Source: Pleionea mediterranea
Lineage (GTDB): Bacteria > Pseudomonadota > Gammaproteobacteria > Enterobacterales > Kangiellaceae
Direction of reading: 5' to 3'
Assembly: GCF_003148745.1 (NCBI RefSeq)
Contig: NZ_QGGU01000001.1
Span: forward strand, 11,536 to 75,535
Length of the DNA: 64,000 nucleotides
Under the pieces are notes generated by a model. It did no database searches. It was not told where the DNA came from and saw only the letters and a list, made by a program, of their open reading frames with translations. Below, one piece after another: positions 32,853 through 53,769 of the stretch; positions within the stretch are counted from its first letter, which is position 1; every line of letters begins with the position of its first letter. The translations under genes and the position numbers were made by a program.

Positions 32853-32944
32853 GTCTATTGAGCGACTGATAAAAATACGCCAATGCAGTATTTACTTTGA
32901 CTGTATTGGCGCTTTTTCCTGACTACTAATATTTGTCTCGACGT

Positions 32945-39113: not shown

Positions 39114-42100
39114 GTGAGTAACTGTACAGCACCTTATAATATCAAGTCTATTGCTGCACTTCTTTGCGGTTTATTTTTGCTGGCAAGTGTCAACAGTTTT
39201 GCCAGTAGCCCTATCTATCATCAGCTTGAAACCATTGATGTGGAGTCTGGATTACCTCAGTCGACAGTTAGAGCGATTACTCAGGATCAATTTGGGTTCA
39301 TTTATTTTGCCACCGATGAAGGGATCTCTCAGTTTGATGGCATTAGTCACAAAAATATCCAGTCGACTGCTAAAGAACTACAGTCTCTGTTTAGCTTTTC
39401 TTCATTATGTGACTCCGAAAATGGATTATGGGCGGGCTCTCTGGATGGCGGTGTGCTTTATTACTCAGCTTCGAGCCGGCAGTGGAAAGAATTTTTACTC
39501 AGTGACATATTTGGTGCCGAAGCTGGCAAACAAGTGATTGGTTGCAGCAAAGATATTGATAACAATATCTGGTTTATTACTGAGCGGGGCTTATTTTCAC
39601 TGGGTGTCGATGAAAATATTGAGTTAATCAGAAAAGATTCATTCTGGATTGAAGGCAACAATCAGGTGAATCATTTAATGATCACGGAAGAAAATCGTTT
39701 TTATATTGCTACTGAGCAAGGGCTGTATACATTGAACTATGGCAGGTTTACGAAACTGGCATCGTATAGTCAGCCTGCGACACGAGTCGTGCAAACATTA
39801 CTGGATGCTCGAGGTCGGCTTTGGGTACTTAATGAATCCTCCGTATCGGTATACAACAATAACAAAGGCGAGTGGGAAATAATTGCTTCTTCGCTTATTG
39901 GCCAGCTTAATCGAAAAGTTGCTCATGAACGGTTAATTGATATTTTTCAGGATTCGGCCGGGCGCACATGGATTGGAACCGAAACACAGGGAATACTGAT
40001 AATTGATGAAAACAATCAGTCGTTGCATCATTTGAAAAAAAATCCCTCATACGGAAATTTACCGGATAACCATATTACTTCTATATATCAGTCACGAGAC
40101 AATGTTATGTGGCTAGGTACCTGGTTAAGTGGGGCGATAAAACTAATCCCGTCATTGCAAGGTATAGACACCACCCGAGTTTTTTCAACCAACAATGGAG
40201 AGATTGTTGAGCCCAGCATTCGATCCATTTATCGTTCCGAGACAGGTGAGCTATGGGTAGGTACTGATAATGCTGGCGTATTGCTTTCTGATGGTAATGG
40301 TAAGTCTTATACTCAATATAAGCGAGTGAGTGACGCGAGTGGGCTTGCAATGAGTGCTGAAAATTATTACCAAAAGCAACCCAGTTTTACGTTACCCAGT
40401 AATACGGTTCGAAACTTTTATCAGCGCAATAATGGTGATTTTTTGATTGGTACTGATCGAGGATTATTAAAGCTTACCGATCAAGGTTTTGAATACTTGG
40501 GACAAAATATTGAAGCAGCTCTAAGTACTGGTGACTTAATTCGCGGTGTGCTTGAAGACTCAAAAAATACACTTTGGGTTGGCACTTATGATAAAGGCTT
40601 GTTCTGGTTTAATGATGAAACAGGACAATATAATCGAATATCATTATCACAAAATTCACTGATTGATAGAGTGGCGCAGGTGCATCTTTCGATGGATGGG
40701 ATGCTCTGGGTGGGCACGGATACACAAGGCTATTTTATTGTAGATCCGATACAAAAAAGCGTAGTTGAACATATCCATTTTAATATGCCGAACCGACTGA
40801 GAGCTCCCGGTAATTCAATATGGAGTTTTTATCAGCCTAACTCGCAGACCATGTGGGTGGGTTCTTATGGACAGGGCTTAGGGCAATTAAATCTTCAGTC
40901 AAGAGTATTCACTTATTTTCGCGAGTCGGATGGATTACCAAACGATGTAATCTATAGCATTACGCAAGATCAGCAAGGTTGGTTTTGGGTTTCTACCAAT
41001 CAGGGATTAGCTCGATTTTCTCCAGGCAAAAAAAAGTTTATCAGCTTAAATAAAGTACATGGCTTGCCACATTCTGAGTTTAATTCGGGGGCGTATTTTA
41101 AGGATGATTCCGGACGACTTTATTATGGCTCACTAAAAGGATTGGTGATTATTGACCCTTCCAAGTTAATGCCCAATACGGGTGAGCATCAAGTCTACTT
41201 AAGTGACTTAAGAGTCAATAACCAGTCAGTTGAGCAAGCGACTAATCATTTAAGTATGCAAGGTGATGTTTTTTCACCAAAACAACTTACGTTTGAAAAG
41301 GATTACGAACAGTTGTTTTTTTCTTTTGCAGTAAGTGACTATTTGGCACCTGATAAAAATATTTTTGCTTATCGATTGTTGGGGTATCAGGATGATTGGG
41401 TATTCAATGAAGGAAAAGTAAGAAGCGCCAGCTTTAATAGTTTACCGGCTGGGTATTATCGGTTAGAAGTAAAAGCAAAAAATAGTTATGGCGTATGGAG
41501 CGATAAGCTTTTAAAAATTGATATACAGTTACAGCCTCCCTGGTGGCTTAGTGGCTGGGCATATTTTTCTTATTTAATTTTAATTATGTCTGTAATCTGG
41601 GGCAGCTTTGAACTTTGGCGTCGCTATCGCAGACAACATAAGTTAATGCTTGAACGATTGCATTATCTGGTTGAGCACCGAACGCAGGAGTTAAAAAATA
41701 AAAATGAGCAACTGAAGTCATTAAACAGTGAATTGCAACATGCTAACGAAAAACTTGAAAAGGTCAGTATGACCGATAGCCTGACAGGGCTGGGCAATCG
41801 ACGTATGATGTACCAGTATCTTGAAAAAGATGTCGGCCGTGTTAATCGGGCTTATATTAGCCTGGAGACCGATCTTCTTAATTTGCCGGACATCCAAAAG
41901 CATGACCTACAATTTTATCTGGTTGATATTGATGATTTTAAAAGCATCAATGATCGTTATGGTCATACTGTTGGCGACAAAGTGCTTATTCAAATAAGTC
42001 AAATACTCACCGCTGTTAGTCGTGAAGGTGATTATGTGGTGCGTTATGGTGGAGAGGAGTTTTTACTGGTGATGCGTGATACACCTCGTAGTGAATCCGC

Positions 42101-42452
42101 TCTCATCGCAGAAAGGATACAGCAAGCATTCCATAGCGAAGAGATAAATATTAGTGCTGACTTAACGATTCCCTTGCGTTGCTCCATTGGTTTTGCACCT
42201 TACCCTTTTTCCAGTCTTTGTCCGGCTCAATTGTTACCTGAACAGGTGATTCAAATTGCAGATATTGCTCTTTATTGTGCAAAAGCCAGTGGGAAAAATT
42301 GCTGGATAGGTTTGAATGGTCATTACAAAAAAGACGAAGTGATAGTTTCGGATGTACTGAATAACACAGAGCAACTTATAGAGCAGGGATTAGTCGAAGT
42401 CATTACTTCTGATAATGTTTCTAAGCTAAACTGGACGCAAGGAAGGCATTAA
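39114..42452 (+). CDS. Sensor diguanylate cyclase: periplasmic two-component-regulator beta-propeller + Y_Y_Y domain, TM, GGDEF
   Basis: 1112 aa. Signal peptide, then a repetitive propeller (WVGT/WIGT repeats). The Y_Y_Y region reads YRLLGYQDDWVF...GYYRLEVKAKNSYGVWSD. After a TM and coiled coil, the GGDEF domain has an intact RYGGEEFLLV. Confidence 0.8.
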   Translation: MSNCTAPYNIKSIAALLCGLFLLASVNSFASSPIYHQLETIDVESGLPQSTVRAITQDQFGFIYFATDEGISQFDGISHKNIQSTAKELQSLFSFSSLCDSENGLWAGSLDGGVLYYSASSRQWKEFLLSDIFGAEAGKQVIGCSKDIDNNIWFITERGLFSLGVDENIELIRKDSFWIEGNNQVNHLMITEENRFYIATEQGLYTLNYGRFTKLASYSQPATRVVQTLLDARGRLWVLNESSVSVYNNNKGEWEIIASSLIGQLNRKVAHERLIDIFQDSAGRTWIGTETQGILIIDENNQSLHHLKKNPSYGNLPDNHITSIYQSRDNVMWLGTWLSGAIKLIPSLQGIDTTRVFSTNNGEIVEPSIRSIYRSETGELWVGTDNAGVLLSDGNGKSYTQYKRVSDASGLAMSAENYYQKQPSFTLPSNTVRNFYQRNNGDFLIGTDRGLLKLTDQGFEYLGQNIEAALSTGDLIRGVLEDSKNTLWVGTYDKGLFWFNDETGQYNRISLSQNSLIDRVAQVHLSMDGMLWVGTDTQGYFIVDPIQKSVVEHIHFNMPNRLRAPGNSIWSFYQPNSQTMWVGSYGQGLGQLNLQSRVFTYFRESDGLPNDVIYSITQDQQGWFWVSTNQGLARFSPGKKKFISLNKVHGLPHSEFNSGAYFKDDSGRLYYGSLKGLVIIDPSKLMPNTGEHQVYLSDLRVNNQSVEQATNHLSMQGDVFSPKQLTFEKDYEQLFFSFAVSDYLAPDKNIFAYRLLGYQDDWVFNEGKVRSASFNSLPAGYYRLEVKAKNSYGVWSDKLLKIDIQLQPPWWLSGWAYFSYLILIMSVIWGSFELWRRYRRQHKLMLERLHYLVEHRTQELKNKNEQLKSLNSELQHANEKLEKVSMTDSLTGLGNRRMMYQYLEKDVGRVNRAYISLETDLLNLPDIQKHDLQFYLVDIDDFKSINDRYGHTVGDKVLIQISQILTAVSREGDYVVRYGGEEFLLVMRDTPRSESALIAERIQQAFHSEEINISADLTIPLRCSIGFAPYPFSSLCPAQLLPEQVIQIADIALYCAKASGKNCWIGLNGHYKKDEVIVSDVLNNTEQLIEQGLVEVITSDNVSKLNWTQGRH

Positions 42453-42510
42453 ATAGCCGTCGTCCAGTTTTTTGTAAATCAGAATGATTAAACCTGTTTT
42501 TTAGCCAAAG

Positions 42511-43611
42511 TTAATTTGGCATCAGTAAGGTGTAGTCGAGCTCAAGAACGCATTGCTTTGATATTCGTAATTGTTCAGGTTCCATCATTAGCTCATTGAT
42601 TGTCTCTTCATCGATATTCTTAAAGCCATAGGTTTTTAGACGCAGCCAACCAATATCTTCACGGTTATCAAAATGGCCTTTATCCAGAATTATGGATGCG
42701 GCATAAACCGTATCACCAGCAAAACTTGGATTTAAATGAGCGCCACCATTTATGGCCGTTAACCATAGACCATTTGCCAGACCACTGTGAGTGATGGCAC
42801 GGCAAAGGGACATAATATGACCGCCATACACCAGTCTTTTCCCGGCAGCAGACTGCGACATCATATGCTGATCAAAATGAACACGGGCATTATTCTGGTA
42901 TAGACGTGTGGCGAGTGAGTGATCGGAATCGTTTATCGTCATGCCCTGACGATGATTGATGATTTCGCCAACTTGATAATGAGTTAAACGGTGTTTACAA
43001 GCTGTCCAGTCACTGGAAAAGTTATCAAAATTTAAATCATCAGGTATTAGATTCTGATTAATTGTGACCGATGATTCAAGATCCGGTATATGGTCAATAC
43101 CCATTGGTGCTGAGGGTGTTTTTTTATGCACCATCACCCAACGTTTCCATTCAACTACGGTTGTGTCGTGTTGATTTTTAGCGATTGAATGAACGTAAAC
43201 AATACCCGTTTTTCCGTTACTGTTTTCTTTTAATCCGATAACCTTTGAAGTAACACTGATGGTATCGCCTGCAAAAATCGGAGATGAAAAGCGGCAGTTG
43301 GCATAACCGAGATTGGCTACGGCGTTTAATGAAATATCCGGAACGGTTTTACCAAAGGCAATATGAAACAGCAGCAGGTTATCAATCGGTAGTCGCTTAA
43401 ACCCACAGGCCTGCGCCACCGTTTCGGCGCAATTGAGTAGGTGCTGACTTCCGGTTAATGCAATGTAGAGGCTGATGTCGCCAGAAGTAATGGTTCGCGG
43501 CGTACCATGAATTAGCTGTTGATTGATTTCAAAGTCTTCAAAAAAATAACCCTGAAAGGTTTTTTCCGTCAAAAACCGCTTAGGTAATTTGGAATTGGTT
43601 GTTTGGTTCAT
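42511..43611 (-). CDS. Double hot-dog (2x MaoC-like) enoyl-CoA hydratase, mesaconyl-CoA/itaconyl-CoA hydratase-like
   Basis: About 366 aa from the ATG at 43611, preceded by a GGAG RBS. This start avoids the 62-nt overlap with the upstream gene implied by the ORF-track start at 43674. Two MaoC dehydratase-like halves are present. Confidence 0.6.
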   Translation of the reverse strand: MNQTTNSKLPKRFLTEKTFQGYFFEDFEINQQLIHGTPRTITSGDISLYIALTGSQHLLNCAETVAQACGFKRLPIDNLLLFHIAFGKTVPDISLNAVANLGYANCRFSSPIFAGDTISVTSKVIGLKENSNGKTGIVYVHSIAKNQHDTTVVEWKRWVMVHKKTPSAPMGIDHIPDLESSVTINQNLIPDDLNFDNFSSDWTACKHRLTHYQVGEIINHRQGMTINDSDHSLATRLYQNNARVHFDQHMMSQSAAGKRLVYGGHIMSLCRAITHSGLANGLWLTAINGGAHLNPSFAGDTVYAASIILDKGHFDNREDIGWLRLKTYGFKNIDEETINELMMEPEQLRISKQCVLELDYTLLMPN

Positions 43612-43612
43612 G

Positions 43613-44545
43613 TTACTTCTCCGGACCACAGAGCTCGCTTTGACCAATTTTATGAACCGTTTTATACACCGCAAGTACTCTTTCTGCCCACTCGGCCAGT
43701 GAAGGCTCTACCAGTCGATCATCAATGACTGCCATTGATCGATCGTTTTTATTCGCCTGTTCAATAGCGTCTAATATCTTTTTTGCTCGATTAATTTCAT
43801 CACGCTTTGGGGTAAAGGCATCGTTGGTGTAATCCAGTTGAATTGGATGTATAACGGTTTTGCCATCAAAGCCCAGATCACGTGCCTGTCGACAGGAAAA
43901 CTCACAGGCTTCTACATTTTTAAGATTAAAGTGGGGTCCATCAATGACACATTTTTTATAAGCTCTTGCGGCTAAAATAACCAGCGATAAACTGGTGATT
44001 AAACCACTGCGATCGGGTGTTGGATTAAGCTTCAATTCATTGGCAAGATCCGTCGTTCCCATAACAATGACTTCCAGCCTTGGGTTGGCTGCAATCTCTT
44101 TAGCGTTTAGTACACCTAATGGACTTTCAATATTGACCATGACTTTTAAGTGTTGACCACCGGCTTGATCAAGATGATAGATGGCTTCTTCAAGTTGTTG
44201 CTGGCTTTCCATTCGTGGAAACGTAACGGCATCAACATTCAGTGTCACCAGAGTTTTTAAGTCATCAAAACCCCAGGGGGAATTTAACGGATTGATGCGA
44301 ACTATTTTTTCCGAATGACCAAACTCACCCTGTTTTAAATATTGCTTTAGGTTTTCACGAGCTTGCTCTTTTTGTTGCGGTGGAACCGATTCCTGTTGAT
44401 CAAAAATAATTGAATCGGCATCGAGAGTGCGTGACTTTTCAATGTGTCGTTCAATATGAGCCGGAACATACAGCATGGTCCGTCTTGGTCGATAGTTAAA
44501 AGGCATGGACGATGTTTCGGTTAAAACCTGTTGTGATGAATTCAT
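43613..44545 (-). CDS. CitE/HpcH-family CoA-ester lyase (citryl/citramalyl/malyl-CoA lyase-like), paralog 2
   Basis: 310 aa. ...RTMLYVPA...VRINPL...HPIQL... fits the CitE beta-subunit-like fold. Its start overlaps the stop of the upstream ligase gene (ATGA). Confidence 0.6.
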   Translation of the reverse strand: MNSSQQVLTETSSMPFNYRPRRTMLYVPAHIERHIEKSRTLDADSIIFDQQESVPPQQKEQARENLKQYLKQGEFGHSEKIVRINPLNSPWGFDDLKTLVTLNVDAVTFPRMESQQQLEEAIYHLDQAGGQHLKVMVNIESPLGVLNAKEIAANPRLEVIVMGTTDLANELKLNPTPDRSGLITSLSLVILAARAYKKCVIDGPHFNLKNVEACEFSCRQARDLGFDGKTVIHPIQLDYTNDAFTPKRDEINRAKKILDAIEQANKNDRSMAVIDDRLVEPSLAEWAERVLAVYKTVHKIGQSELCGPEK

Positions 44546-46191
44546 GCCGTTTGCTCCCTGTTTAATTGTTGGACGAGTTGTTTGCGCAACACTTTTCCAT
44601 TTTTTGTGCGTGGAAACTCGCTCATAAAGTGTATCACTTTTGGTGCTTTATATTTCGCCAGATGTTCTGCACCAAATGCGAGTAAATCATCTTCGCTAAC
44701 CTGGGCATCGGTATGAGTGATCACACACACCGAAACCAGTGTTTTATCTTTAGAAATGGTTTCTCCAAGCGCCACACAATCGGCAATGGCCGGATGGGTT
44801 TTCATAACGCGTTCCACTTCGTGAGGTGAGACCCGATAACCAAAGGTATTTATAATGTCGTCTTTGCGACCAATAAACCAGATATACCCCTCGGCATCTA
44901 CCCGGGCGTAATCGCCAGTTAAAAAGTAGCCTTGTTGCTTGGCTTTATCGGTTTCTTCGGGCAGGTTCCAGTAACGAATGAATAATCCAGGATCGTTCAG
45001 CGGCAGGCAAATCATGCCTTCTTCTCCGGCAGCTACCGGATTCAGGTTTTCATCGCGCAAGCTGACTTGATGACCCGGTTGAGCAAAGCCTGCGGCACCC
45101 GGCCGGATAGGTTTACCTTTGTGCTGAGAAATATAATAGGACAGCTCGGACATGCCAATGGCTTCATACACATCCTGCCCGAATCTTGCGCGCCAGGCTA
45201 ATAACATTTCATCGGAGAGGTGTTCGCCCGCGCTCATGCAGTGATTCAGTGACGGAACGTCTTTTTTGTCTAGATTGGTCTTCTGAATAATTTGCCGATA
45301 AATGGTCGGTACGCCTATAAAGGTAGTGCACTGGTGTTTTTTGATAAGACGCGGCCAGGTGGTGGCGTCATTCGGTCCTTCATACACCACGACGGTTTTG
45401 CCGTGAAACAGCGGATCCATCAGGGCGGAGCCCAGTACGTAAGTCCAGTTGAATTTACCGGAGTGAAGAATGCGATCCTTGCCCTGAAAATTAAACCAGA
45501 ACTCAGAAGCTGGCAATCGACCAATCAGTGCCCGGTGAGCATGCAATACGCCTTTAGGAAACCCGGTGGTACCAGAGGTATAAACCAGATAAGCCGGATC
45601 ATCGGCTCGTGTTTTATGGCAGCGAAAACTTTTACGTTGACTGTTTAACTCTGCGTCCAGATCAATCAACTGGATATTGCCGACGCTGGGCAGGTCGCGC
45701 AGATTTCCGTCACCTGTAAGCAGTACCTGTTTTAACTGGGGGCAATCGGCCAGTGAGTCAGCAAGCTCGCTCCACATGGCTTTATCCGTAACCAGTGCCC
45801 GTGCACCCGAATCTTTCGCCAGATAGGCCACTTCATCCGCGGACAGCAAGGTGGATGTCGGTACGGCAATGGCACCGTATTTTAAACAGCCAAAAAATGC
45901 AGTGGGGTATTCAAGCGAGTTGGGCAGTCGAATGAGTAATCGATCACTTACATCAAACTTAAGGCTGGCAAGCAGGTTAGCAAATGCGCATGTGCGTTGA
46001 TAGAGTTGTTCGTAAGTCAGTGCCGAGGTGCCTCTATGGGCATCTTCCAGAATAAACGCCGTGCTGTCTGGCTGATGTTCAAGATGACGATCGATACAGG
46101 CTTCACCAATATTAAAATGGTCGGGCAGTTGCCATTCCCATTGTTCTGGTGCGGCAACATCGGATCTCAGGTATTGGTTTAATTCATTCAT
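44542..46191 (-). CDS. AMP-dependent acyl-CoA synthetase/ligase
   Basis: 549 aa. AMP-binding motif YTSGTTGFPKGV. Length and layout are typical of medium-chain or aromatic acid-CoA ligases. Confidence 0.85.
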   Translation of the reverse strand: MNELNQYLRSDVAAPEQWEWQLPDHFNIGEACIDRHLEHQPDSTAFILEDAHRGTSALTYEQLYQRTCAFANLLASLKFDVSDRLLIRLPNSLEYPTAFFGCLKYGAIAVPTSTLLSADEVAYLAKDSGARALVTDKAMWSELADSLADCPQLKQVLLTGDGNLRDLPSVGNIQLIDLDAELNSQRKSFRCHKTRADDPAYLVYTSGTTGFPKGVLHAHRALIGRLPASEFWFNFQGKDRILHSGKFNWTYVLGSALMDPLFHGKTVVVYEGPNDATTWPRLIKKHQCTTFIGVPTIYRQIIQKTNLDKKDVPSLNHCMSAGEHLSDEMLLAWRARFGQDVYEAIGMSELSYYISQHKGKPIRPGAAGFAQPGHQVSLRDENLNPVAAGEEGMICLPLNDPGLFIRYWNLPEETDKAKQQGYFLTGDYARVDAEGYIWFIGRKDDIINTFGYRVSPHEVERVMKTHPAIADCVALGETISKDKTLVSVCVITHTDAQVSEDDLLAFGAEHLAKYKAPKVIHFMSEFPRTKNGKVLRKQLVQQLNREQTA

Positions 46192-46193
46192 AA

Positions 46194-47315
46194 TTAAATT
46201 TTCCCATACGGCCAGTTTTCACGGATCACATGCACGGGCAGTCGTTTCAGTACATCCATGGCAAAGGCTTTGTTGTCGTCGCTTAAGGCTTTTAACGCGT
46301 AGGCGCGTAACAAGGTTTGCAGTGCTTTACCAAACATGGGGGGATCCAGCATTTCGCCTTCAAACCGTATGGCACCACCTAACAGAGCATCGGCATCAAT
46401 CGCCGCCTGTAAAACCTTCACGTTACGATTAATTTGCAGAGGGCTCGGCGTAAAGGCCACTTTACACAGGTGGATATGGTAGGGGTGAATAACCTGTTTT
46501 CCGGTAAGCCCCATTTGTGCTTCTTCCACGGCATGGCGATGCACTACATGGGAATTATGATCACCGTGCAAATCGAGCCAGCGTCTTACATCGTGCGGCT
46601 CAATAAAGTTTTCGGGCATCGCGGTTTCATTGATCAGAACTTCTACCCCACCAATTACGCCTTTACCGGCAATTCGGGCTTCAAGTAACAAGTTACGTAA
46701 ATAAGTTCTTAATTCATCGATCCAGCCTTCTGGCGTTAAGTGGATCGCCATGGCTTTGGAAAAATCGTGTATACCGAATACCACATGAGTCACCGATGAA
46801 AACTGCATCAAATCGGGTGCCAGTTTCAGTGAGCGGGGGTGTTCGATGATCGGCTGAATTTCAATTTTTTCATTCACGCCAACCAGCCAGGAAGACAGAT
46901 CGCGAATTTCAGCGGCGCCATAGACTTCACCGGCTTTGGCCAGAATAATCACATCAATGTGTTCTTTGACGGCTTTTATTAATTCCAGATCTTTTTCGTA
47001 TTCTGGCGTACGAAAAGGGTTGATCCGCAGGGCAATCTGAAAGTCGCGCTCGGGAAATTTCGGCAGTTCCTGCTTGAGCAGTTCGCGACTCATTTCTTTT
47101 TGTCGGCAACCGTCTTCCAGATCAAAGAGCAGTGTGTGAGCCGGACAATGATGCGCGTGTCTGCGTATGCGATCTGCGGCCTGTTCCATGGTTTCATACT
47201 GACCTTGCGCGGGATTGTACTTAACCGGGGGATAATAAAGCTGTATCCCCGGCCAAAATCCGCCCAATACTAACTGTTCGTCGACATTGTCGAGAAATGC
47301 GTATTCGTAGTTCAT
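46194..47315 (-). CDS. Divergent CitE/HpcH-family lyase-like protein, paralog 1 (first gene of the operon)
   Basis: 373 aa. FDLEDGCRQ (DLED motif), ALRINPF, IEHPRS and GIHDF occupy positions corresponding to CitE metal/substrate motifs. A long C-terminal extension follows. Confidence 0.45.
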   Translation of the reverse strand: MNYEYAFLDNVDEQLVLGGFWPGIQLYYPPVKYNPAQGQYETMEQAADRIRRHAHHCPAHTLLFDLEDGCRQKEMSRELLKQELPKFPERDFQIALRINPFRTPEYEKDLELIKAVKEHIDVIILAKAGEVYGAAEIRDLSSWLVGVNEKIEIQPIIEHPRSLKLAPDLMQFSSVTHVVFGIHDFSKAMAIHLTPEGWIDELRTYLRNLLLEARIAGKGVIGGVEVLINETAMPENFIEPHDVRRWLDLHGDHNSHVVHRHAVEEAQMGLTGKQVIHPYHIHLCKVAFTPSPLQINRNVKVLQAAIDADALLGGAIRFEGEMLDPPMFGKALQTLLRAYALKALSDDNKAFAMDVLKRLPVHVIRENWPYGKI

Positions 47316-47397
47316 GATCGGGTCCTATCCAATTGTACCTTGTGGCAGAGACGGCTTGGTAAGGGCTGACTCTGGTCTACCATTATTATGGTTTTAT

Positions 47398-47515
47398 ATT
47401 GCAGCGCAATAATACTAAAGCATAGTTAAACGCTCATTTCAATCACTTGTTTGAATTTTTTGTTGCCATAAAAATCCGACTTTAGTATGGTTGTATTCGG
47501 TTTATTGCGGTGCAA
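47398..47515. promoter_or_regulatory. Pair of palindromic TTGC-N3-GCAA motifs in the divergent promoter region
   Basis: ATTGCAGCGCAAT at 47398-47410 and ATTGCGGTGCAA at 47504-47515, about 105 bp apart, lie between the minus-strand lyase operon and the plus-strand lyase gene. Confidence 0.3.
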
Positions 47516-47610
47516 AAATTAATCAGGATCAACACCCGTAGCGGATATGGTATTTACAATACGGGGTCTGAAATCTTAAAAGTGCTTAACATTTAACAAG
47601 TTACAGGAGG

Positions 47611-48609
47611 TTGGCCATGAGCCAGACAGTGCACCCTAACGATGCATTATTTGAGGGAGAGAAGCCGTTTCCGGTGATCCCAAGCTGTGAACATTTTGCC
47701 GGAAGTGAAAAACTGATCCGCAAAGCCATGTCGCTGCAAGAGAAAATAGGCCCTGTGTTTGACATTACCTGCGATTGTGAAGACGGTGCGGCATCGGGTA
47801 AAGAAGTTGAGCACGCGGAAATGGTCGCCGCTGTCATCGGTTCGGACGATAACAAACACAATATGGCCGGGGTACGGATCCACGATTATTCTCACCCGGA
47901 CTGGAAACAGGACGTGGATATTCTGGTGCCCAAAATAGGCGAGCGGGTGGCTTATATCACTATTCCCAAGGCAACCGAAGCCAGCCAGGTGGCTGAAATG
48001 GTTGACTATATTCAGCAGGTGGCGAAAAAGTCTGGCATTGAACGTGAAATCCCAATCCATGTATTAATCGAAACCCACGGTGCGCTAAAAGAGGTTTGGG
48101 ATATTGCAAAAGTTCCCTGGTTGCAAGTTCTTGACTTTGGCATGATGGACTTTGTTTCGGCTCATCAGGGGGCCATACCGGCTTCGGCGATGCGTTCACC
48201 AGGACAATTTGATCACCCCATTCTGGCACGCGCTAAAGCCGAAATGACCGCTGCCGCTTTGGCCAATGGTATTGTTCCTGCGCACAACGTTACCCTTGAT
48301 CTAAAAAATCCCTACCAGACTTATAAAGACGCGGAGCGCGCCCGAAATGAGTTTGGATTTCTACGCATGTGGAGCATTTACCCGACACAAATTAACGCCA
48401 TCATCGATGCCATGAAACCGGATTATTCCGAAATAGAAGATGCCATTGGTATCCTGACGGCGGCGCAAGATTCTGAGTGGGGACCTATTCAGTTTAAAGG
48501 CGAGCTTCATGATCGGGCGACCTATCGTTATTACTGGCAACTATTGCAACGCGCCCATGTGATGGGGCAAACATTACCGGATGATGTTCGACAGCGCTTT
48601 TTCGAATGA
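47611..48609 (+). CDS. CitE-family malyl-CoA/citramalyl-CoA lyase-like protein, paralog 3
   Basis: 332 aa with a GGAGG RBS. ...FDITCDCEDGA..., ...VPKIG... and ...HVLIETHGAL... match an Mcl/CitE-like layout. Confidence 0.6.
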   Translation: MAMSQTVHPNDALFEGEKPFPVIPSCEHFAGSEKLIRKAMSLQEKIGPVFDITCDCEDGAASGKEVEHAEMVAAVIGSDDNKHNMAGVRIHDYSHPDWKQDVDILVPKIGERVAYITIPKATEASQVAEMVDYIQQVAKKSGIEREIPIHVLIETHGALKEVWDIAKVPWLQVLDFGMMDFVSAHQGAIPASAMRSPGQFDHPILARAKAEMTAAALANGIVPAHNVTLDLKNPYQTYKDAERARNEFGFLRMWSIYPTQINAIIDAMKPDYSEIEDAIGILTAAQDSEWGPIQFKGELHDRATYRYYWQLLQRAHVMGQTLPDDVRQRFFE

Positions 48610-48698
48610 AGTTTTTGACAGATGCTCTTTGATAGAAAAGTAAAGGGATGATGAGTTGTGCGACACTTACCTGGGGTAAGGTCGCACTTTTGGTCTTA

Positions 48699-49559
48699 TT
48701 ACTGCTTAAACCTCATAATGCCTTCCTGAGCGGTGCTGGCAACCAGCCGGCCCTGTTGATCATAGACCTTACCTAATACAAATCCTCGTTGATGCGATGA
48801 TGATGGGCTATCTATAACGTACAGAAGCCAGTCATCAAAACGAAATTCACGGTGGAACCACATTGAGTGATCGATGGTGGCCATTTGCAGTTTGGGGGTT
48901 AAAAACGAAACGCCATGGGGCAACGCTGCGGTGGGTAAAAAGCCAAAGTCGGAAGCATAGGCGAGTATATATTTATGGATCCTTAAATCATCGGGCAGCT
49001 TGCCGTTGGTTTTCATCCAGATGTGGCGCTGCGGGGAGGCTTTTTCTGGTTTAAGTGGGTTGTGAAATTCAACCGGTCGCATTTCAATCGGTTTTTCACA
49101 AATAAAACGGGTGCGTAAATTTTCCGGAATATGTTCGGCGTATTGTCGGGCAATATCGAGTTCCGAAGGCAGATCATCGGGCAGAGTAACATTTGGCATG
49201 GACGCCTGATGATCGAAGCCATCGTTTGATATATGAAACGATGCCGTCATATAAAAGATGGTTTTGCCATTCTGGATGGCTTTTACCCGACGGGTAGAGA
49301 TGCTGCGGCCATCACGGATGGATTCTACGTCGTAAACAACCGGTCTTGAGGAATCGCCTGGTAATAAAAAGTAGCTGTGGAAAGAGTGAGAGACTCGATC
49401 GACATCAAGTGTTTGTTTGGCTGCTGATAGAGCCTGACCAATAACTTGACCTCCAAACAGTTGTGGAAAGCCAAGATCCTGACTTTGCCCACGGAACAAG
49501 TTGGTTTCTATGGGTTCCAGCTGCAACAATTCAACCAGTTCTTCTAGCACTTGGCTCAT
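48699..49559 (-). CDS. tesB: Acyl-CoA thioesterase II
   Basis: 286 aa. [44 protein letters not shown]...IDHSMWFHR is collinear with E. coli TesB. Confidence 0.9.
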
Positions 49560-49723
49560 AATAACTCTCTATTAATGTTTTGTAGTTACTATTGTAGGTG
49601 AATATTTTTTACAGGCAATAGCATTGACTCCGGAGTACGCACCGCAGAGAATGGCAATAGATTAAAGGTTTCAATTAATGCTGCTGTTGTTCAGGTAGAT
49701 CTTTACTAAAGAGAGATTGATTT

Positions 49724-50236
49724 ATGTTAAGTGATCGTTTTTTCATCCATGGAATAGTCAGGCTGTTTTGTTCAGTGATCATCGTTTGTTTGATCAGCAG
49801 TTGCGCCAACTTAACCTCAATGGAAAAAAGTATTGATACATTGACTAGCGAAGCCAATGAAGGTGATCTCAATGCCGCACATGCACTGTGCTTTCGTTTT
49901 AGTAATGGCGTAGGAGCAGAAATAGACGATGATGCTGCATTTAACTGGTGTCACCGAGCTTCGTCCACGCAAAATCCAAAGTCGATGACCTTACTGGCGG
50001 ATCTTTATTATCATGGTCGTGGCACCGAGCAAGATTACCATCAAGCAGCCAAGCTGTATTATTTTGCCGCCCAGCGTGGCATCGATAAAGCCATGCTAAT
50101 GCTTTATCATCACTATATTAATGGCTATGGCGTGGCCAAAGATGAAACGGAAGCGCGTTATTATTTAAATCGTGCCGCGCAGAGAAATTACGCGCCAGCA
50201 AAACAATTAAAACAACAATTACTATTACAACCTTAA
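49724..50236 (+). CDS. Sel1-repeat (TPR-like) protein, probable lipoprotein
   Basis: 170 aa. Hydrophobic N-terminus with Cys (LISSCANL). Sel1-like repeats around ...ADLYYHGRGTEQDYHQAAKLYYFAAQRG... and ...YINGYGVAKDETEARYYL... Confidence 0.6.
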   Translation: MLSDRFFIHGIVRLFCSVIIVCLISSCANLTSMEKSIDTLTSEANEGDLNAAHALCFRFSNGVGAEIDDDAAFNWCHRASSTQNPKSMTLLADLYYHGRGTEQDYHQAAKLYYFAAQRGIDKAMLMLYHHYINGYGVAKDETEARYYLNRAAQRNYAPAKQLKQQLLLQP

Positions 50237-50246
50237 GATATATTTT

Positions 50247-52947: not shown

Positions 52948-53769
52948 TCAGAAGTTTGTGGTCAACTGATACAGTTTTTCGCTGTGAGAAAGTGGACAGA
53001 CAAAAGCAAGTTTAACAGCCATAAGCATTAAATCATCATCAAGTATCGTACTATCATAAAGACGATCACCAACTATTGGAAATCCCGACTCTGCAAGATG
53101 TCGCCTTATTTGATGTTTACGTCCTGTTTCAATGGATACTTCAAGTAGTGATGTTTCATTAACCTTATCGATTGTCAGGGGGATCACATGACTAACACTC
53201 GGCTTGCCATCTATTGGCTGATTGATTGTTTGAGAGGCTTCAAACGGCCATACACCTTCGACCATAGCGTGGTAGGTTTTGCTAATAGCGCGTGTTGCAA
53301 ATAGGTGCGATAATTTTGCGGCAGCGGTTTTAGAATGAGCCACTAAAATAATGCCGCTGGCTGCTCTATCGAGTCGATGGACCACAAAACTATTTCGTTG
53401 TGGTGTTAAATGCTGTTCTGCCCATCGTGTAATGGTGCAATGATCACCCCATTTTGAGCCTTGAGACAATAGCCCTGACGGTTTATTCCAAACACTGTAG
53501 TCGCTTTCGTCGGCAATTAGCTCTGGTACAGAGGGCTCGGCTGAAAGTACCTTTTCATCATAATATATGTGTAAGGTTTGACCGCATTTTAATGTTTTTT
53601 TAGCACGACGAATGCGTTGTGTCTTTTTGCCAGCCGTAAGCCAGACGCAACCCTTATTCATAGCTTCTTTTAGTTTTTGTTTTGATAGTTCAGTATGTGA
53701 GGCAAGGCACTCGATCGCCAGTTGATTGTCAGTAGCAATCTTGATGTGTTGCTCGAACGACTTTAACAT
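52948..53769 (-). CDS. RluA-family pseudouridine synthase
   Basis: 273 aa. HRLDRAASGIILVAHS is the catalytic HRLD...SG motif. Its start overlaps the stop of the upstream GGDEF gene (TAATG). Confidence 0.75.
   Translation of the reverse strand: MLKSFEQHIKIATDNQLAIECLASHTELSKQKLKEAMNKGCVWLTAGKKTQRIRRAKKTLKCGQTLHIYYDEKVLSAEPSVPELIADESDYSVWNKPSGLLSQGSKWGDHCTITRWAEQHLTPQRNSFVVHRLDRAASGIILVAHSKTAAAKLSHLFATRAISKTYHAMVEGVWPFEASQTINQPIDGKPSVSHVIPLTIDKVNETSLLEVSIETGRKHQIRRHLAESGFPIVGDRLYDSTILDDDLMLMAVKLAFVCPLSHSEKLYQLTTNF

What the first reader, a model, noticed from the sequence alone, without database searches (positions are those of the whole stretch)
42511..49559. CoA-ester cluster with three distinct CitE/HpcH-family lyase paralogs, a double-hot-dog hydratase, an acyl-CoA ligase and TesB: candidate C4/C5-dicarboxylate (itaconate, mesaconate or citramalate type) pathway
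The minus-strand operon (47315 to 42511) reads: divergent CitE-like lyase (373 aa), AMP-dependent ligase, CitE-like lyase (310 aa), 2x MaoC hydratase. Stop and start codons overlap or abut (ATGA; 2-nt and 1-nt gaps). A third CitE/Mcl-like gene is divergently transcribed from the shared 295-bp promoter region, and tesB lies beyond it.

The enzyme set mirrors the Mcl/Mch/Mct module of the 3-hydroxypropionate bi-cycle and methylaspartate cycles, and the Ict/Ich/Ccl itaconate degradation route. It uses a ligase instead of a CoA transferase, and has three lyases where known pathways need one or two.

Each of the three lyases alters the canonical CitE DLEDAV metal-binding motif: DQQESV in the 43613-44545 gene, DLEDG in the 46194-47315 gene and DCEDG in the 47611-48609 gene. 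This hints at different substrates. It could be an undescribed route for a methyl-branched dicarboxylic acid.
Basis: partly seen in the sequence, partly recalled or inferred. Interest (0 to 1): 0.6.

Follow-up and report, generated by a model that had tools for sequence, protein, structure and literature searches.

The report
Conserved mesaconyl-CoA / methylmalyl-CoA enzyme gene module
This is a real five-gene enzyme cluster, found from marine bacteria to iron oxidisers, that most likely links acetyl-CoA plus pyruvate with propionyl-CoA plus glyoxylate through five-carbon diacids; it was predicted on paper in 2007 and, in the literature I could search, has never been tested.

Summary
The genes, domains, tight junctions and motifs are as described. 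Two start codons need small corrections.

The organism is a Pleionea species (Kangiellaceae).

Five genes form a conserved module: lyA (373 aa), ligase, lyB (310 aa), hydratase and lyC (330 aa). The module occurs in Gamma- and Betaproteobacteria, Campylobacterota and Nitrospirota. It persists through rearrangements and through ligase::lyB fusions.

tesB adjoins the module only in the Pleionea clade. In 11 other Kangiellaceae loci a 4HBT thioesterase sits in that place.

The hydratase is a close relative of characterised mesaconyl-C1-CoA hydratase (Mch). It is 49% identical, and all nine active-site residues are kept. [quoted passage not shown]

Only lyA and lyC keep the full CitE catalytic set. 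lyB is degenerate and is probably not a lyase.

Neighbours in other lineages point the same way: class I fumarase (a mesaconase), acs/prpE, malic enzyme and methylcitrate genes. They suggest a shunt between acetyl-CoA + pyruvate and propionyl-CoA + glyoxylate.

The same pathway was proposed in silico for Arcobacter butzleri ab1917-ab1921 in 2007. I found no experimental test.

The direction of flux, the ligase substrate and the role of lyB remain inferred.

The parts
46194..47315 (-). lyA: 373-aa divergent CitE-like CoA-ester lyase, first gene of the operon. Proposed (S)-citramalyl-CoA lyase (acetyl-CoA + pyruvate).
   Evidence: Pfam HpcH_HpaI, E 3.8e-10. It keeps DLED(G), Arg (LRIN), Glu (IEH), Asp (IHDF) and the lid Asp (EMLDPP), invariant or nearly so in 81 orthologues. 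It is 68-96% identical across classes and 66% identical in Arcobacter. The family is compact: about ten full-length 50%-cluster representatives score above 280 bits, and the next relatives score 84 bits or less. Its best solved relatives are citramalyl-CoA lyases (CLYBL, P. aeruginosa Ccl), but weakly at 41 bits or less. It is always adjacent to the ligase.
44542..46191 (-). lig: 549-aa AMP-forming acyl-CoA ligase (ANL family). Proposed mesaconate (or citramalate) CoA ligase, taking the place of a CoA transferase.
   Evidence: Pfam AMP-binding (E 7e-74) plus AMP-binding_C. No NCBIfam equivalog cut-off is reached. The nearest solved relatives are benzoate-CoA, 2-methylbutyrate-type and medium-chain ligases. 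It overlaps lyB by ATGA. It is fused to the lyB domain in Campylobacterota, Nitrospirota and some Gammaproteobacteria.
43613..44545 (-). lyB: 310-aa CitE-like paralogue with a degenerate catalytic set. Probably not a C-C lyase. It may be a partner of the ligase, a thioesterase or an adaptor.
   Evidence: Pfam HpcH_HpaI, E 8e-42. It has DQQES in place of DLED, and Glu280 at the lid catalytic Asp position. Across orthologues the DLED position reads DLQES, DLHES, DLGDP, DL-EG or DLHRS. The Mg-ligand Asp is replaced by N, A, G or Q in some lineages, and the Mg-ligand Glu by A or S in others. The lid Asp position holds E, Q, S or D, and the catalytic Arg is Gly in Inmirania. At long range it is the fastest-diverging of the five genes: 39-46% identical where lyA is 66-73%.
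42511..43611 (-). hyd: 366-aa double hot-dog (R)-specific enoyl-CoA hydratase of the Mch/MeaC type. Proposed mesaconyl-C1-CoA hydratase / beta-methylmalyl-CoA dehydratase.
   Evidence: PDB 4E3E (Chloroflexus Caur_0173), E 2e-108, 49% identity. PDB 8HGN (M. extorquens MeaC), E 1.5e-92, 46% identity. The residues F71, S79, N85, K113, R142, N226, H231, Y248 and G249 of MeaC (PMC10164722) are all conserved here, and in 72 of 72 orthologues apart from K-to-R in six and Y-to-F in one. The RipB/Ich equivalog scores 112 bits against a cut-off of 340.
47316..47616 (.). Divergent intergenic region between lyA and lyC. It holds two TTGC-N3-GCAA palindromes (47399-47409 and 47505-47515, 106 bp apart) and a TTCAA-N8-TTGAA element (47438-47455).
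   Evidence: Sequence read. The palindrome pair is present at the same spacing in all five Pleionea-clade loci; in four of them (L001, L002, L003, L005) the two are the only occurrences in 11-21 kb, while L004 has three more copies. The pair is absent in other genera. TTCAA-N8-TTGAA occurs in Pleionea, in 77% of Kangiella loci and in Permianibacter. Promoter-like matches are not above chance. No Rfam match.
47617..48609 (+). lyC: 330-aa CitE-like lyase of the 3QQW/Reut_B4148 family, divergently transcribed. Proposed beta-methylmalyl-CoA / malyl-CoA lyase (propionyl- or acetyl-CoA + glyoxylate).
   Evidence: PDB 3QQW, E 8.5e-155, and 3R4I, E 1.8e-113; both are structural-genomics entries of unknown function. 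The next hits are malyl-CoA lyases 4L9Y, 5UGR and 4L7Z. DCEDG, Arg (VRIH), Glu (IET), Asp (MDF) and the lid Asp (ELHDRA) are invariant in 69 orthologues. It sits next to hyd in the Gallionellaceae, Campylobacterota and Nitrospirota arrangements.
48699..49559 (-). tesB: acyl-CoA thioesterase II, convergent with lyC. A clade-specific neighbour and a possible accessory thioesterase.
   Evidence: NCBIfam TIGR00189 tesB scores 318 bits against a cut-off of 293. It adjoins the module only in L001-L005. In 11 other Kangiellaceae loci a 144-aa 4HBT thioesterase (PF03061) lies directly downstream of lyC on the same strand.

Best explanation
The five genes lyA, lig, lyB and hyd (one operon) plus the divergent lyC form a self-contained metabolic module. 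I propose that it interconverts acetyl-CoA + pyruvate with propionyl-CoA + glyoxylate through C5 dicarboxylates.

Proposed steps:
1. lyA handles (S)-citramalyl-CoA <-> acetyl-CoA + pyruvate.
2. A thioesterase releases the free acid. Candidates are lyB, or the TesB or 4HBT enzyme beside lyC.
3. A class I fumarase encoded elsewhere interconverts (S)-citramalate and mesaconate.
4. The AMP-forming ligase re-activates the free acid, most simply mesaconate to mesaconyl-C1-CoA. This replaces the CoA transferase of known pathways at the cost of ATP.
5. hyd (Mch type) interconverts mesaconyl-C1-CoA and beta-methylmalyl-CoA.
6. lyC handles beta-methylmalyl-CoA <-> propionyl-CoA + glyoxylate. With a thioesterase it may also make malate from glyoxylate + acetyl-CoA.

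What is shown: gene content, conservation, fusions, catalytic-residue states and the close kinship of hyd to characterised Mch.

What is inferred: the substrates of lig, lyA and lyC, the role of lyB, the involvement of fumarase, and the direction of flux. I rate 'propionyl-CoA + glyoxylate consumed' and 'acetyl-CoA + pyruvate consumed' as about equally likely.
For: - The module is conserved in about 70 of 80 genome loci. These include Kangiellaceae, Thalassotalea, Permianibacter, Sedimenticola, Chromatiaceae and Gallionellaceae. The order is rearranged in Betaproteobacteria, to lyC-hyd-lyB opposite lyA-lig.
- It is also present in Campylobacterota and Nitrospirota. There lyA is 66% identical, lyC 67-70%, lig 56-58%, hyd 49-51% and the lyB domain 39-42%.
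- hyd matches characterised Mch: 49% identity to Chloroflexus Mch and 46% to MeaC, with 9 of 9 active-site residues conserved, in all 72 orthologues apart from conservative K-to-R (six) and Y-to-F (one) changes (PMC10164722).
- lyA and lyC keep the full CitE catalytic set invariantly. After its own family, lyC's nearest characterised relatives are malyl-CoA lyases. lyA's are citramalyl-CoA lyases.
- lig and lyB are translationally coupled. They are fused in at least two sequence types.
- Class I fumarase lies near the module in four distant lineages (PMC2147049). Class I fumarases are mesaconases and class II fumarases are not (PMC4682846).
- In a Thermodesulfovibrionales MAG the module sits between PycB-like genes and prpE/acs, fumarase, prpB-prpC and prpD.
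- acs and actP are divergent from lyA-lig in a Usitatibacter-type lineage.
- MaeB follows the module in a Chromatiaceae locus and a Gallionellaceae locus.
- The same scheme was proposed independently for A. butzleri.
Against: - No experiment exists for any member.
- No fumarase, prp gene or transporter lies within the 64-kb window.
- The ligase's closest characterised relatives act on monocarboxylates: benzoate, 2-methylbutyrate and acetate. A dicarboxylate substrate is therefore only inferred.
- The assignments of lyA and lyC rest on weak similarity (58 bits or less) and on gene adjacency.
- lyB has no consistent catalytic signature. Its lid residue is E, Q, S or D, so calling it a thioesterase is uncertain.
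- A. nitrofigilis has a class II fumarase beside the module, not a class I enzyme.
- A. butzleri carries the cluster but does not grow on acetate or propionate.
- The role of the module in obligate or facultative CO2-fixing lithotrophs is unexplained.
Confidence: 0.5

Rival explanations
1. The module only degrades mesaconate, in the manner of the end of the methylaspartate cycle or the ethylmalonyl-CoA pathway. Mesaconate goes to mesaconyl-C1-CoA (lig), then to beta-methylmalyl-CoA (hyd), then to propionyl-CoA + glyoxylate (one lyase). Glyoxylate + acetyl-CoA then gives malyl-CoA (the other lyase) and malate (lyB or TesB as thioesterase). No citramalyl-CoA step is involved.
For: Five genes map onto five reactions. 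hyd is of the Mch type. Haloarchaea and Rhodobacter also use two CitE-like proteins here, Mcl plus a malate synthase or Mcl2 (PMC3832036). The window's lyB has Glu at the lid Asp position, as the Mcl2 thioesterase clade does. Malic enzyme lies next to the module in two lineages. A thioesterase recurs beside lyC.
Against: No source of mesaconate is evident. No glutamate mutase, methylaspartase, crotonyl-CoA carboxylase or transporter was seen in any of about 90 loci. Recurrent class I fumarase (mesaconase) and acs/prp neighbours fit a citramalate link better. The Glu in lyB is not conserved; it is Q, S or D elsewhere.
Confidence: 0.2
2. The module degrades or detoxifies itaconate with a ligase instead of Ict. 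Itaconate goes to itaconyl-CoA (lig), then to (S)-citramalyl-CoA (hyd acting as Ich), then to acetyl-CoA + pyruvate (a CitE-like Ccl).
For: The logic is the same: activation, MaoC hydratase, CitE-like lyase. The weak best NCBIfam hits include RipB_Ich and RipC_Ccl. lyA's weak best solved relatives are citramalyl-CoA lyases.
Against: RipB_Ich scores 112 bits against a cut-off of 340. RipC_Ccl scores 140, 49 and 45 bits against 375. hyd matches Mch, the C1-CoA hydratase, with all active-site residues. Two extra conserved CitE paralogues are left unexplained. The module occurs in iron- and sulfur-oxidising lithotrophs and marine proteolytic bacteria, with prp, acs and fumarase neighbours.
Confidence: 0.07
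3. The module acts on a different hydroxy- or enoyl-dicarboxyl-CoA, for example fumaryl- or malyl-CoA only, or an as yet unknown C4-C6 acid. The likeness to Mch reflects chemistry, not the exact substrate.
For: None of the five proteins reaches an NCBIfam equivalog cut-off. lyA and lyC belong to families with no characterised member. MeaC crystallised with malate in its pocket. A class II fumarase and malic enzyme lie next to the module in some genomes.
Against: At 49% identity with 9 of 9 pocket residues conserved across 72 orthologues, hyd has most likely retained Mch specificity. The association with methylcitrate and propionate genes fits a propionyl-CoA-yielding C5 substrate.
Confidence: 0.15

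Closest known systems
Arcobacter (Aliarcobacter) butzleri RM4018 cluster ab1917-ab1921 (Miller et al. 2007, PMC2147049), an in-silico 'citramalate cycle / 3-hydroxypropionate-like' segment
   Same: The gene set is the same: two CitE-like genes, an acyl-CoA synthetase with a third CitE domain, and a MaoC hydratase. The proposed function is also the same: glyoxylate + propionyl-CoA <-> pyruvate + acetyl-CoA via mesaconate and citramalate. Orthology was checked on the A. nitrofigilis and Sulfurospirillum versions: lyA 66% identical, lyC 67-70%, lig 56-58%, hyd 49-51%, lyB domain 39-42%.
   Different: Here lyB is a separate gene, coupled by ATGA, rather than fused to the ligase. lyC is divergently transcribed. 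No fumarase or IclR regulator is adjacent. tesB is adjacent. The 2007 proposal treated all three CitE domains as possible lyases, and it was never tested.
Glyoxylate-assimilation half of the 3-hydroxypropionate bi-cycle (Chloroflexus Mcl, Mch, Mct, Meh)
   Same: The overall conversion is the same, and so is the Mch step; hyd is 49% identical to Caur_0173/4E3E. CitE-like lyases act at both ends.
   Different: There is no Mct (intramolecular CoA transferase) and no Meh. In their place are an ATP-consuming ligase, probably with a thioesterase and a class I fumarase acting on the free acids. Two dedicated, deeply divergent lyases replace the single trifunctional Mcl. There is also a degenerate third paralogue.
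Methylaspartate cycle (Haloarcula Mct, Mch, Mcl, CitE-like malate synthase) and the end of the ethylmalonyl-CoA pathway (Rhodobacter Mch, Mcl1, Mcl2)
   Same: Mesaconate or mesaconyl-CoA is converted to beta-methylmalyl-CoA and then to propionyl-CoA + glyoxylate. A second CitE-like protein deals with glyoxylate + acetyl-CoA. The thioesterase Mcl2 has Glu at the lid Asp position, as lyB does in this window.
   Different: Activation is by a ligase, not a succinyl-CoA-dependent CoA transferase. No glutamate mutase, methylaspartase or crotonyl-CoA carboxylase genes lie nearby. The haloarchaeal NCBIfam equivalogs score far below their cut-offs.
Itaconate degradation Ict/Ich/Ccl (Yersinia RipABC, Pseudomonas PA0878-0883)
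   Same: The logic is the same: activation, then a MaoC-type hydratase, then a CitE-like lyase giving acetyl-CoA + pyruvate.
   Different: The hydratase is of the Mch type, not the Ich type. There is no CoA transferase. The equivalog models are not met. Two further CitE paralogues are present.
Citramalate cycle proposed for Rhodospirillum rubrum (Ivanovsky et al. 1997; reviewed in PMC8307300)
   Same: The intermediates run in the same order: acetyl-CoA + pyruvate, citramalate, mesaconate, mesaconyl-CoA, beta-methylmalyl-CoA, then glyoxylate + propionyl-CoA.
   Different: That cycle was a physiological proposal without assigned genes. The review notes that no data are available on enzymes for citramalyl-CoA hydrolysis and for the citramalate-to-mesaconate step. 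Here there is a candidate gene set but no physiology.
PDB 3QQW (Reut_B4148, Cupriavidus pinatubonensis JMP134) and 3R4I (Burkholderia xenovorans), 'putative citrate lyase'
   Same: lyC belongs to this family (E 8.5e-155 and 1.8e-113), so a crystal structure of a close orthologue exists.
   Different: Both are structural-genomics entries. They were listed as CitE-like proteins of unknown function in PMC3832036.

Membership tests
CitE-like / HpcH_HpaI superfamily (PF03328) | Significant match to the family profile above Pfam's gathering score | tested here: met
   lyB scores 143.5 bits, lyC 47.7 bits and lyA 39.9 bits against a cut-off of 25. Foldseek top hits for a low-confidence lyA model are all CitE-like lyases.
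Catalytically competent CitE-like CoA-ester lyase | DxED motif, enolate-stabilising Arg, Mg-binding Glu and Asp, and the lid-domain catalytic Asp (PMC3832036) | tested here: met
   This holds for lyA and lyC. All positions are present and invariant, or nearly so, in 81 and 69 orthologues.
Catalytically competent CitE-like CoA-ester lyase (lyB) | The same five catalytic positions | tested here: not met
   The window's lyB has DQQES and a lid Glu. Across orthologues the Mg-ligand Asp is N, A, G or Q in some lineages and the Mg-ligand Glu is A or S in others. The lid residue is E, Q, S or D, and the Arg is Gly in Inmirania.
(3S)-malyl-CoA thioesterase Mcl2 clade | Glu replacing the lid catalytic Asp (PMC3832036); clustering with Rhodobacter Mcl2 | tested here: inconclusive
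   Glu is present in the window and in most Kangiellaceae and Gallionellaceae lyB, but it is Q, S or D in other orthologues. No Mcl2 sequence was available for a tree.
Mesaconyl-C1-CoA hydratase Mch/MeaC (EC 4.2.1.148) | Double hot-dog fold of about 350 aa; high identity to characterised Mch; conserved substrate and catalytic residues (F71, S79, N85, K113, R142, N226, H231, Y248, G249 of MeaC) | tested here: met
   49% identity to 4E3E (Caur_0173) and 46% to 8HGN. All nine residues are conserved here, and in 72 of 72 orthologues apart from K-to-R in six and Y-to-F in one.
Mesaconyl-C1-CoA hydratase Mch/MeaC (EC 4.2.1.148) | Measured hydratase activity on mesaconyl-C1-CoA | not testable with these tools
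   This needs an enzyme assay.
Haloarchaeal 2-methylfumaryl-CoA hydratase (NF041625) | Score above the equivalog cut-off | tested here: not met
   65 bits against a cut-off of 560. That model is specific to haloarchaea.
Itaconate degradation RipB/Ich and RipC/Ccl (NF038241, NF038242) | Scores above the equivalog cut-offs; an associated itaconate CoA transferase | tested here: not met
   hyd scores 112 bits against 340. lyB, lyA and lyC score 140, 49 and 45 bits against 375. No CoA transferase gene was found in the window's locus or in any related locus.
Citrate lyase beta subunit CitE (TIGR01588) | Score above the equivalog cut-off; citD, citF and citC partners | tested here: not met
   The best score is lyB at 182 bits against a cut-off of 443. 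No citD, citF or citC lies nearby.
Malyl-CoA / beta-methylmalyl-CoA lyase (Mcl) | Clustering with characterised Mcl; measured lyase activity | tested here: inconclusive
   After its own 3QQW family, lyC's next solved relatives are all malyl-CoA lyases, but only at 58 bits or less. NF041626 scores 43 bits against a cut-off of 500. Activity was not tested.
ANL (AMP-forming) acyl-CoA ligase | AMP-binding plus AMP-binding_C domains | tested here: met
   249 and 45 bits. No substrate-level equivalog is reached.
Acyl-CoA thioesterase II TesB | Score above the TIGR00189 equivalog cut-off | tested here: met
   318 bits against a cut-off of 293. PRK10526 scores 459 bits against 481, just below.
A. butzleri ab1917-ab1921-type cluster (PMC2147049) | Co-located lyA-like and lyC-like CitE genes, a ligase with or next to a third CitE domain, and an Mch-like hydratase | tested here: met
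   All components are present. Orthology to the Campylobacterota versions is 39-70% identity, component by component. The fumarase member (ab1921) is absent from the window.

The most novel reading that the evidence does not exclude
The module supplies the missing genes for the long-disputed 'citramalate cycle'. Running from acetyl-CoA + pyruvate to glyoxylate + propionyl-CoA, it would need only the methylcitrate cycle (propionyl-CoA + oxaloacetate to pyruvate + succinate) or propionyl-CoA carboxylation to complete the loop. The net result would be that of isocitrate lyase: acetyl-CoA + oxaloacetate to glyoxylate + succinate. That would be a fourth acetyl-CoA assimilation route, independent of isocitrate lyase and of vitamin B12, and spread over several bacterial phyla. 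Within it, a degenerate CitE paralogue (lyB) would act as a dedicated partner or thioesterase domain of the ligase.
Probability: 0.15. Interest if true: 0.8.

Novelty: new variant of a known kind. Interest (0 to 1): 0.5.

Why it matters
- Two of the five proteins, lyA and lyC, define very strongly conserved CitE-like families with no characterised member. They are 66-96% identical between bacterial phyla. lyC already has a crystal structure, 3QQW.
- A relative of the marker gene lyA was confirmed in at least 573 stretches of the 185,579 species-representative genomes scanned; the module itself was checked in the best 80 loci. The hosts include marine protein degraders, Arcobacter and Sulfurospirillum, and iron- and sulfur-oxidising autotrophs.
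- If the proposed conversion is right, these organisms have an unrecognised link between C2/C3 metabolism and glyoxylate/propionyl-CoA. Genome-based metabolic models currently miss it, or mis-annotate it as 'citrate lyase beta subunit' or as a partial 3-hydroxypropionate bi-cycle.
- It would also give a defined gene set for testing the old citramalate-cycle hypothesis.
- It would add an ATP-driven alternative to mesaconyl-CoA transferase for pathway engineering.

Tried and rejected
- **Literature.** Only the 2007 A. butzleri genome paper describes the cluster. No experimental follow-up turned up. The Zarzycki 2008 Mch paper is not held.
- **Conserved neighbours.** All-against-all clustering of ORFs in 81 loci found no transporter, regulator or further enzyme shared across lineages beyond the five genes.
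- **tesB as a core member.** Rejected. It is present in only 5 of 81 loci.
- **A shared operator.** A palindrome screen of the lyC/lyA intergenic regions found nothing universal. The TTGC-N3-GCAA pair is specific to the Pleionea clade.
- **Riboswitch or RNA element.** No Rfam match at E of 1 or below in 42000-50300.
- **Promoter and terminator scans.** Not above the shuffled expectation.
- **AlphaFold model of lyA.** Built from 12 similar sequences, it was poor: mean pLDDT 62, with residues 181-289 below 50. The Foldseek result supports only the fold family.
- **A more distant lyA relative.** P0242 (51% identical) lies in an unrelated context, so it is not part of the module.
- **Phylogeny with Mcl2, Ccl and CitE references.** Not built, because reference sequences could not be imported. 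Profile and pairwise scores were used instead.
- **Whole-genome co-occurrence** with aceA, prpBCD or mcm could not be computed with these tools.

Full report
**1.

The ORFs are at the stated coordinates. Pfam finds the following:
- Three HpcH_HpaI (CitE-like) proteins: lyB at 43613-44545, lyA at 46194-47315 and lyC at 47611/47617-48609.
- An AMP-binding ligase at 44542-46191.
- A double MaoC/MC_hydratase protein at 42511-43611/43674.
- An acyl-CoA thioesterase II at 48699-49559.

The junctions were read on the minus strand. The motifs DQQESV, DLEDG and DCEDG are in the translations.

Two starts need correcting. The hydratase begins at the ATG at 43611 (366 aa). lyC most likely begins at the ATG at 47617 (330 aa). 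Public gene calls agree on both, and the 3QQW alignment supports the lyC start. The intergenic region is then 301 bp.

Only TesB reaches an NCBIfam equivalog cut-off.

**2. Source and surroundings**

The closest genome loci are Pleionea and Kangiellaceae MAGs, at 95-96% identity for lyA. The named relatives are Pleionea sediminis and Pleionea sp..

The rest of the window carries rpoBC-rpsLG-fusA, pst-phoU-phoBR, GGDEF proteins and peptidases. None of these is related metabolism, and there is no transporter or regulator for the cluster.

**3. A five-gene module conserved across phyla**

lyA is unusually conserved. It is 68-84% identical in other Gammaproteobacteria, Betaproteobacteria and Sorangium.

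Of these, 573 encode a relative of lyA.

In the 80 best loci, lyC, lyA, lig, lyB and hyd co-occur in about 70. These include Kangiellaceae, Thalassotalea, Permianibacter, Sedimenticola, Chromatiaceae, Sideroxydans/Gallionellaceae and Inmirania.

In Gallionellaceae the order is lyC-hyd-lyB on one strand. A GntR/UTRA regulator gene and then lyA-lig lie on the other strand.

tesB is adjacent only in the five Pleionea-clade loci. All-against-all clustering of neighbouring ORFs found no sixth gene shared across lineages.

Against 1.84 billion 50%-identity cluster representatives, lyA has only about ten full-length relatives above 280 bits. The next relatives are generic CitE-like proteins at 84 bits or less. 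lyA therefore belongs to a compact, isolated family.

**4. The hydratase fixes one step**

hyd matches PDB 4E3E (Chloroflexus aurantiacus) at E 2e-108, with 49% identity. It matches 8HGN (Methylorubrum extorquens MeaC, mesaconyl-CoA hydratase) at E 1.5e-92, with 46% identity.

4E3E and 8HGN are 61% identical over shared positions. The MeaC structure paper gives 59.9% for Caur_0173 against MeaC. So 4E3E is the characterised Chloroflexus Mch (PMC10164722).

The paper names nine residues as lining the malate/methylmalyl pocket, the catalytic pair and the CoA site. All nine are conserved in hyd. They are also conserved in 72 of 72 orthologues, apart from K-to-R in six and Y-to-F in one.

The Ich (itaconyl-CoA hydratase) equivalog is far from met, at 112 bits against 340.

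I conclude that beta-methylmalyl-CoA <-> mesaconyl-C1-CoA is very likely a reaction of this module. Enzyme activity itself is untested.

**5. Two real lyases and one degenerate paralogue**

I mapped the proteins onto solved CitE-like enzymes and onto the catalytic residues described for malyl-CoA lyases (PMC3832036).
- lyA has DLEDG, LRIN, IEH, IHDF and EMLDPP.
- lyC has DCEDG, VRIH, IET, MDF and ELHDRA.

Both keep the Glu-Asp pair, the Arg, both Mg ligands and the lid Asp. These positions are invariant, or nearly so, in 81 and 69 orthologues.

lyC belongs to the family of the structural-genomics entries 3QQW (Reut_B4148) and 3R4I, which were listed as 'unknown function' in 2013. Its next relatives are all malyl-CoA lyases.

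lyA's weak best relatives are the citramalyl-CoA lyases CLYBL and P. aeruginosa Ccl.

lyB is different. In the window it has DQQES in place of DLED, and Glu at the lid Asp position. Across orthologues every catalytic position drifts:
- The DLED position reads DLQES, DLHES, DLGDP, DL-EG or DLHRS.
- The Mg-ligand Asp becomes N, A, G or Q.
- The Mg-ligand Glu becomes A or S.
- The lid residue is E, Q, S or D.
- The Arg becomes Gly in Inmirania.

At long range lyB diverges fastest: 39-46% identity where lyA keeps 66-73%.

A lid Glu is the hallmark of the Mcl2 malyl-CoA thioesterase clade. It is not consistent here, so 'thioesterase' remains only one possibility.

**6. lyB belongs with the ligase**

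The ligase and lyB genes overlap by ATGA in the window.

They are one 839-852-aa polypeptide (AMP-binding + AMP-binding_C + HpcH_HpaI) in several groups:
- some Chromatiales and Sedimenticolaceae;
- Arcobacter, Halarcobacter, Malaciobacter, Sulfurospirillum and Ca. Marinarcus;
- Thermodesulfovibrionales.

A second fusion occurs in one gammaproteobacterial MAG. Its lyB part is 64-68% identical to unfused Sedimenticola lyB and only 37% identical to the other fusion type. It therefore looks independent. A lost stop codon in a single MAG cannot be excluded.

**7. Informative neighbours elsewhere**

(a) Class I fumarase lies near the module in four distant lineages:
- A. butzleri (ab1921);
- Sulfurospirillum;
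- a Usitatibacter-type betaproteobacterial lineage, where lyA-lig-UPF0114-fumarase is divergent from acs, with actP, DUF294 and a two-component system further on;
- a Thermodesulfovibrionales MAG.

Class I fumarases hydrate mesaconate to (S)-citramalate. Class II FumC does not (PMC4682846). However, A. nitrofigilis has FumC beside the module.

(b) In the Thermodesulfovibrionales MAG the module sits on one strand among related genes. On one side are two PycB/OadA-like genes. On the other are a PrpE/Acs-like ligase, fumarase alpha, a PrpB-PrpC fusion and PrpD. All the prp genes score above their equivalog cut-offs. The module there is part of a propionate/methylcitrate locus.

(c) NADP-malic enzyme (MaeB) directly follows the module in a Chromatiaceae locus and a Gallionellaceae locus.

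(d) In 11 Kangiellaceae loci a 144-aa 4HBT thioesterase lies immediately downstream of lyC on the same strand. In the Pleionea clade tesB occupies that side. A thioesterase beside lyC therefore recurs by non-homologous replacement.

**8. Most likely mechanism (inferred)**

The pieces fit a shunt between {acetyl-CoA + pyruvate} and {propionyl-CoA + glyoxylate}:
- lyA at the citramalyl-CoA end.
- A thioesterase and a class I fumarase acting on the free acids citramalate and mesaconate.
- The AMP-forming ligase re-activating the acid, most simply mesaconate at C1.
- hyd acting as Mch.
- lyC at the beta-methylmalyl-CoA end. With a thioesterase it may also make malate from glyoxylate + acetyl-CoA, as Mcl1 and Mcl2 do in Rhodobacter.

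The assignment of lyA and lyC rests on two things. One is their weak nearest characterised relatives. The other is sub-module adjacency: lyA goes with lig and fumarase, and lyC goes with hyd.

The direction is open.
- With the methylcitrate cycle, the forward direction would give the net reaction of isocitrate lyase.
- The reverse direction would be a B12-independent sink for propionyl-CoA and glyoxylate. That would suit amino-acid-degrading Kangiellaceae.

A. butzleri, which has the cluster, does not grow on acetate or propionate. That argues against a simple role in acetate assimilation there.

**9. Prior knowledge and novelty**

Miller et al. 2007 described ab1917-ab1921 in A. butzleri. The cluster holds two CitE-like genes, a synthetase-CitE fusion, an enoyl-CoA hydratase and an anaerobic fumarase. 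[quoted passage not shown]

I confirmed that Campylobacterota clusters of this architecture (checked in A. nitrofigilis and Sulfurospirillum, not in A. butzleri itself) are orthologous to the window's module. The pathway idea is therefore not new.

I found no experimental test in the searchable library. A 2021 review still states that no data are available on the enzymes for citramalyl-CoA hydrolysis and mesaconate formation in a citramalate cycle.

The analysis here adds:
- the breadth of the module's distribution;
- the firm Mch assignment;
- the finding that only two of the three CitE paralogues are catalytically intact;
- the ligase-lyB coupling;
- the recurrent fumarase, thioesterase, prp, acs and malic-enzyme neighbours.

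I rate it a new variant of a known kind, of moderate interest.

**10. Limits**

- The lyA structure model was poor (pLDDT 62). It supports only the fold family.
- No tree with Mcl2, Ccl or CitE references could be built.
- Whole-genome co-occurrence could not be computed.
- No regulatory RNA was found, and promoter-like and terminator-like matches were not above the shuffled expectation.

Noticed in passing
window 47399-47409 and 47505-47515: Two TTGC-N3-GCAA palindromes lie 106 bp apart in the lyA/lyC divergent region. All five Pleionea-clade loci conserve them at the same spacing; in four of the five they are the only copies in 11-21 kb (L004 has three more). Other genera lack them. They are a candidate operator pair for an unknown regulator.
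   Followed up: partly
window 47438-47455: A TTCAA-N8-TTGAA inverted repeat lies in the same intergenic region. It is also present in the equivalent region of 77% of Kangiella loci and all Permianibacter loci, but not in Thalassotalea or Sedimenticola. It could be chance in AT-rich DNA.
   Followed up: partly
L006, L007, L009, L011-L013, L015, L016, L026, L027, L039 (immediately downstream of lyC): A 144-aa 4HBT hot-dog thioesterase gene is co-directional with lyC, mostly at gaps of a few to about 100 nt (up to ~225 nt in L012; overlapping in L026). It sits at the place where the Pleionea clade has tesB.
   Followed up: yes
L090:12057-14063: A single 668-aa protein fuses methylisocitrate lyase (PrpB) to 2-methylcitrate synthase (PrpC). 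Both halves score above their equivalog cut-offs. It occurs in a Thermodesulfovibrionales MAG, next to the module.
   Followed up: partly
L061:8786-11683; L067, L071, L075; L088-L092: Ligase::lyB fusions of two sequence types. The L061 type looks like an independent fusion, or a lost stop codon in one MAG.
   Followed up: yes
L030 (JBLIBL010000047.1, labelled 'MAG: Polaribacter sp.'): The contig carries a Kangiella-like module, with lyA 82% identical and the same synteny. The contig is probably mis-binned into a Bacteroidota MAG.
   Followed up: no
window 39114-42452, 53769-55508, 55510-57273: Three large genes flank the cluster. Two are GGDEF signalling proteins: the 1112-aa protein (Reg_prop/Y_Y_Y + GGDEF) directly downstream of hyd, and the 579-aa protein at 53769-55508 (TPR + GGDEF). 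The 587-aa ORF at 55510-57273 was not annotated. GC falls to 33-35% at 54-58 kb, against about 43% elsewhere.
   Followed up: no
L086:18603-19643 versus window 32852-32945: A close relative carries transposase remnants (rve_3, HTH) between the Band_7 and metallo-beta-lactamase-fold genes. In the window those two genes are directly adjacent.
   Followed up: no
L084 / L085 (Inmirania thermothiophila) lyB: The otherwise universal catalytic Arg of CitE-like proteins is Gly (VGVN) in this lyB orthologue. The rest of the module is intact.
   Followed up: partly
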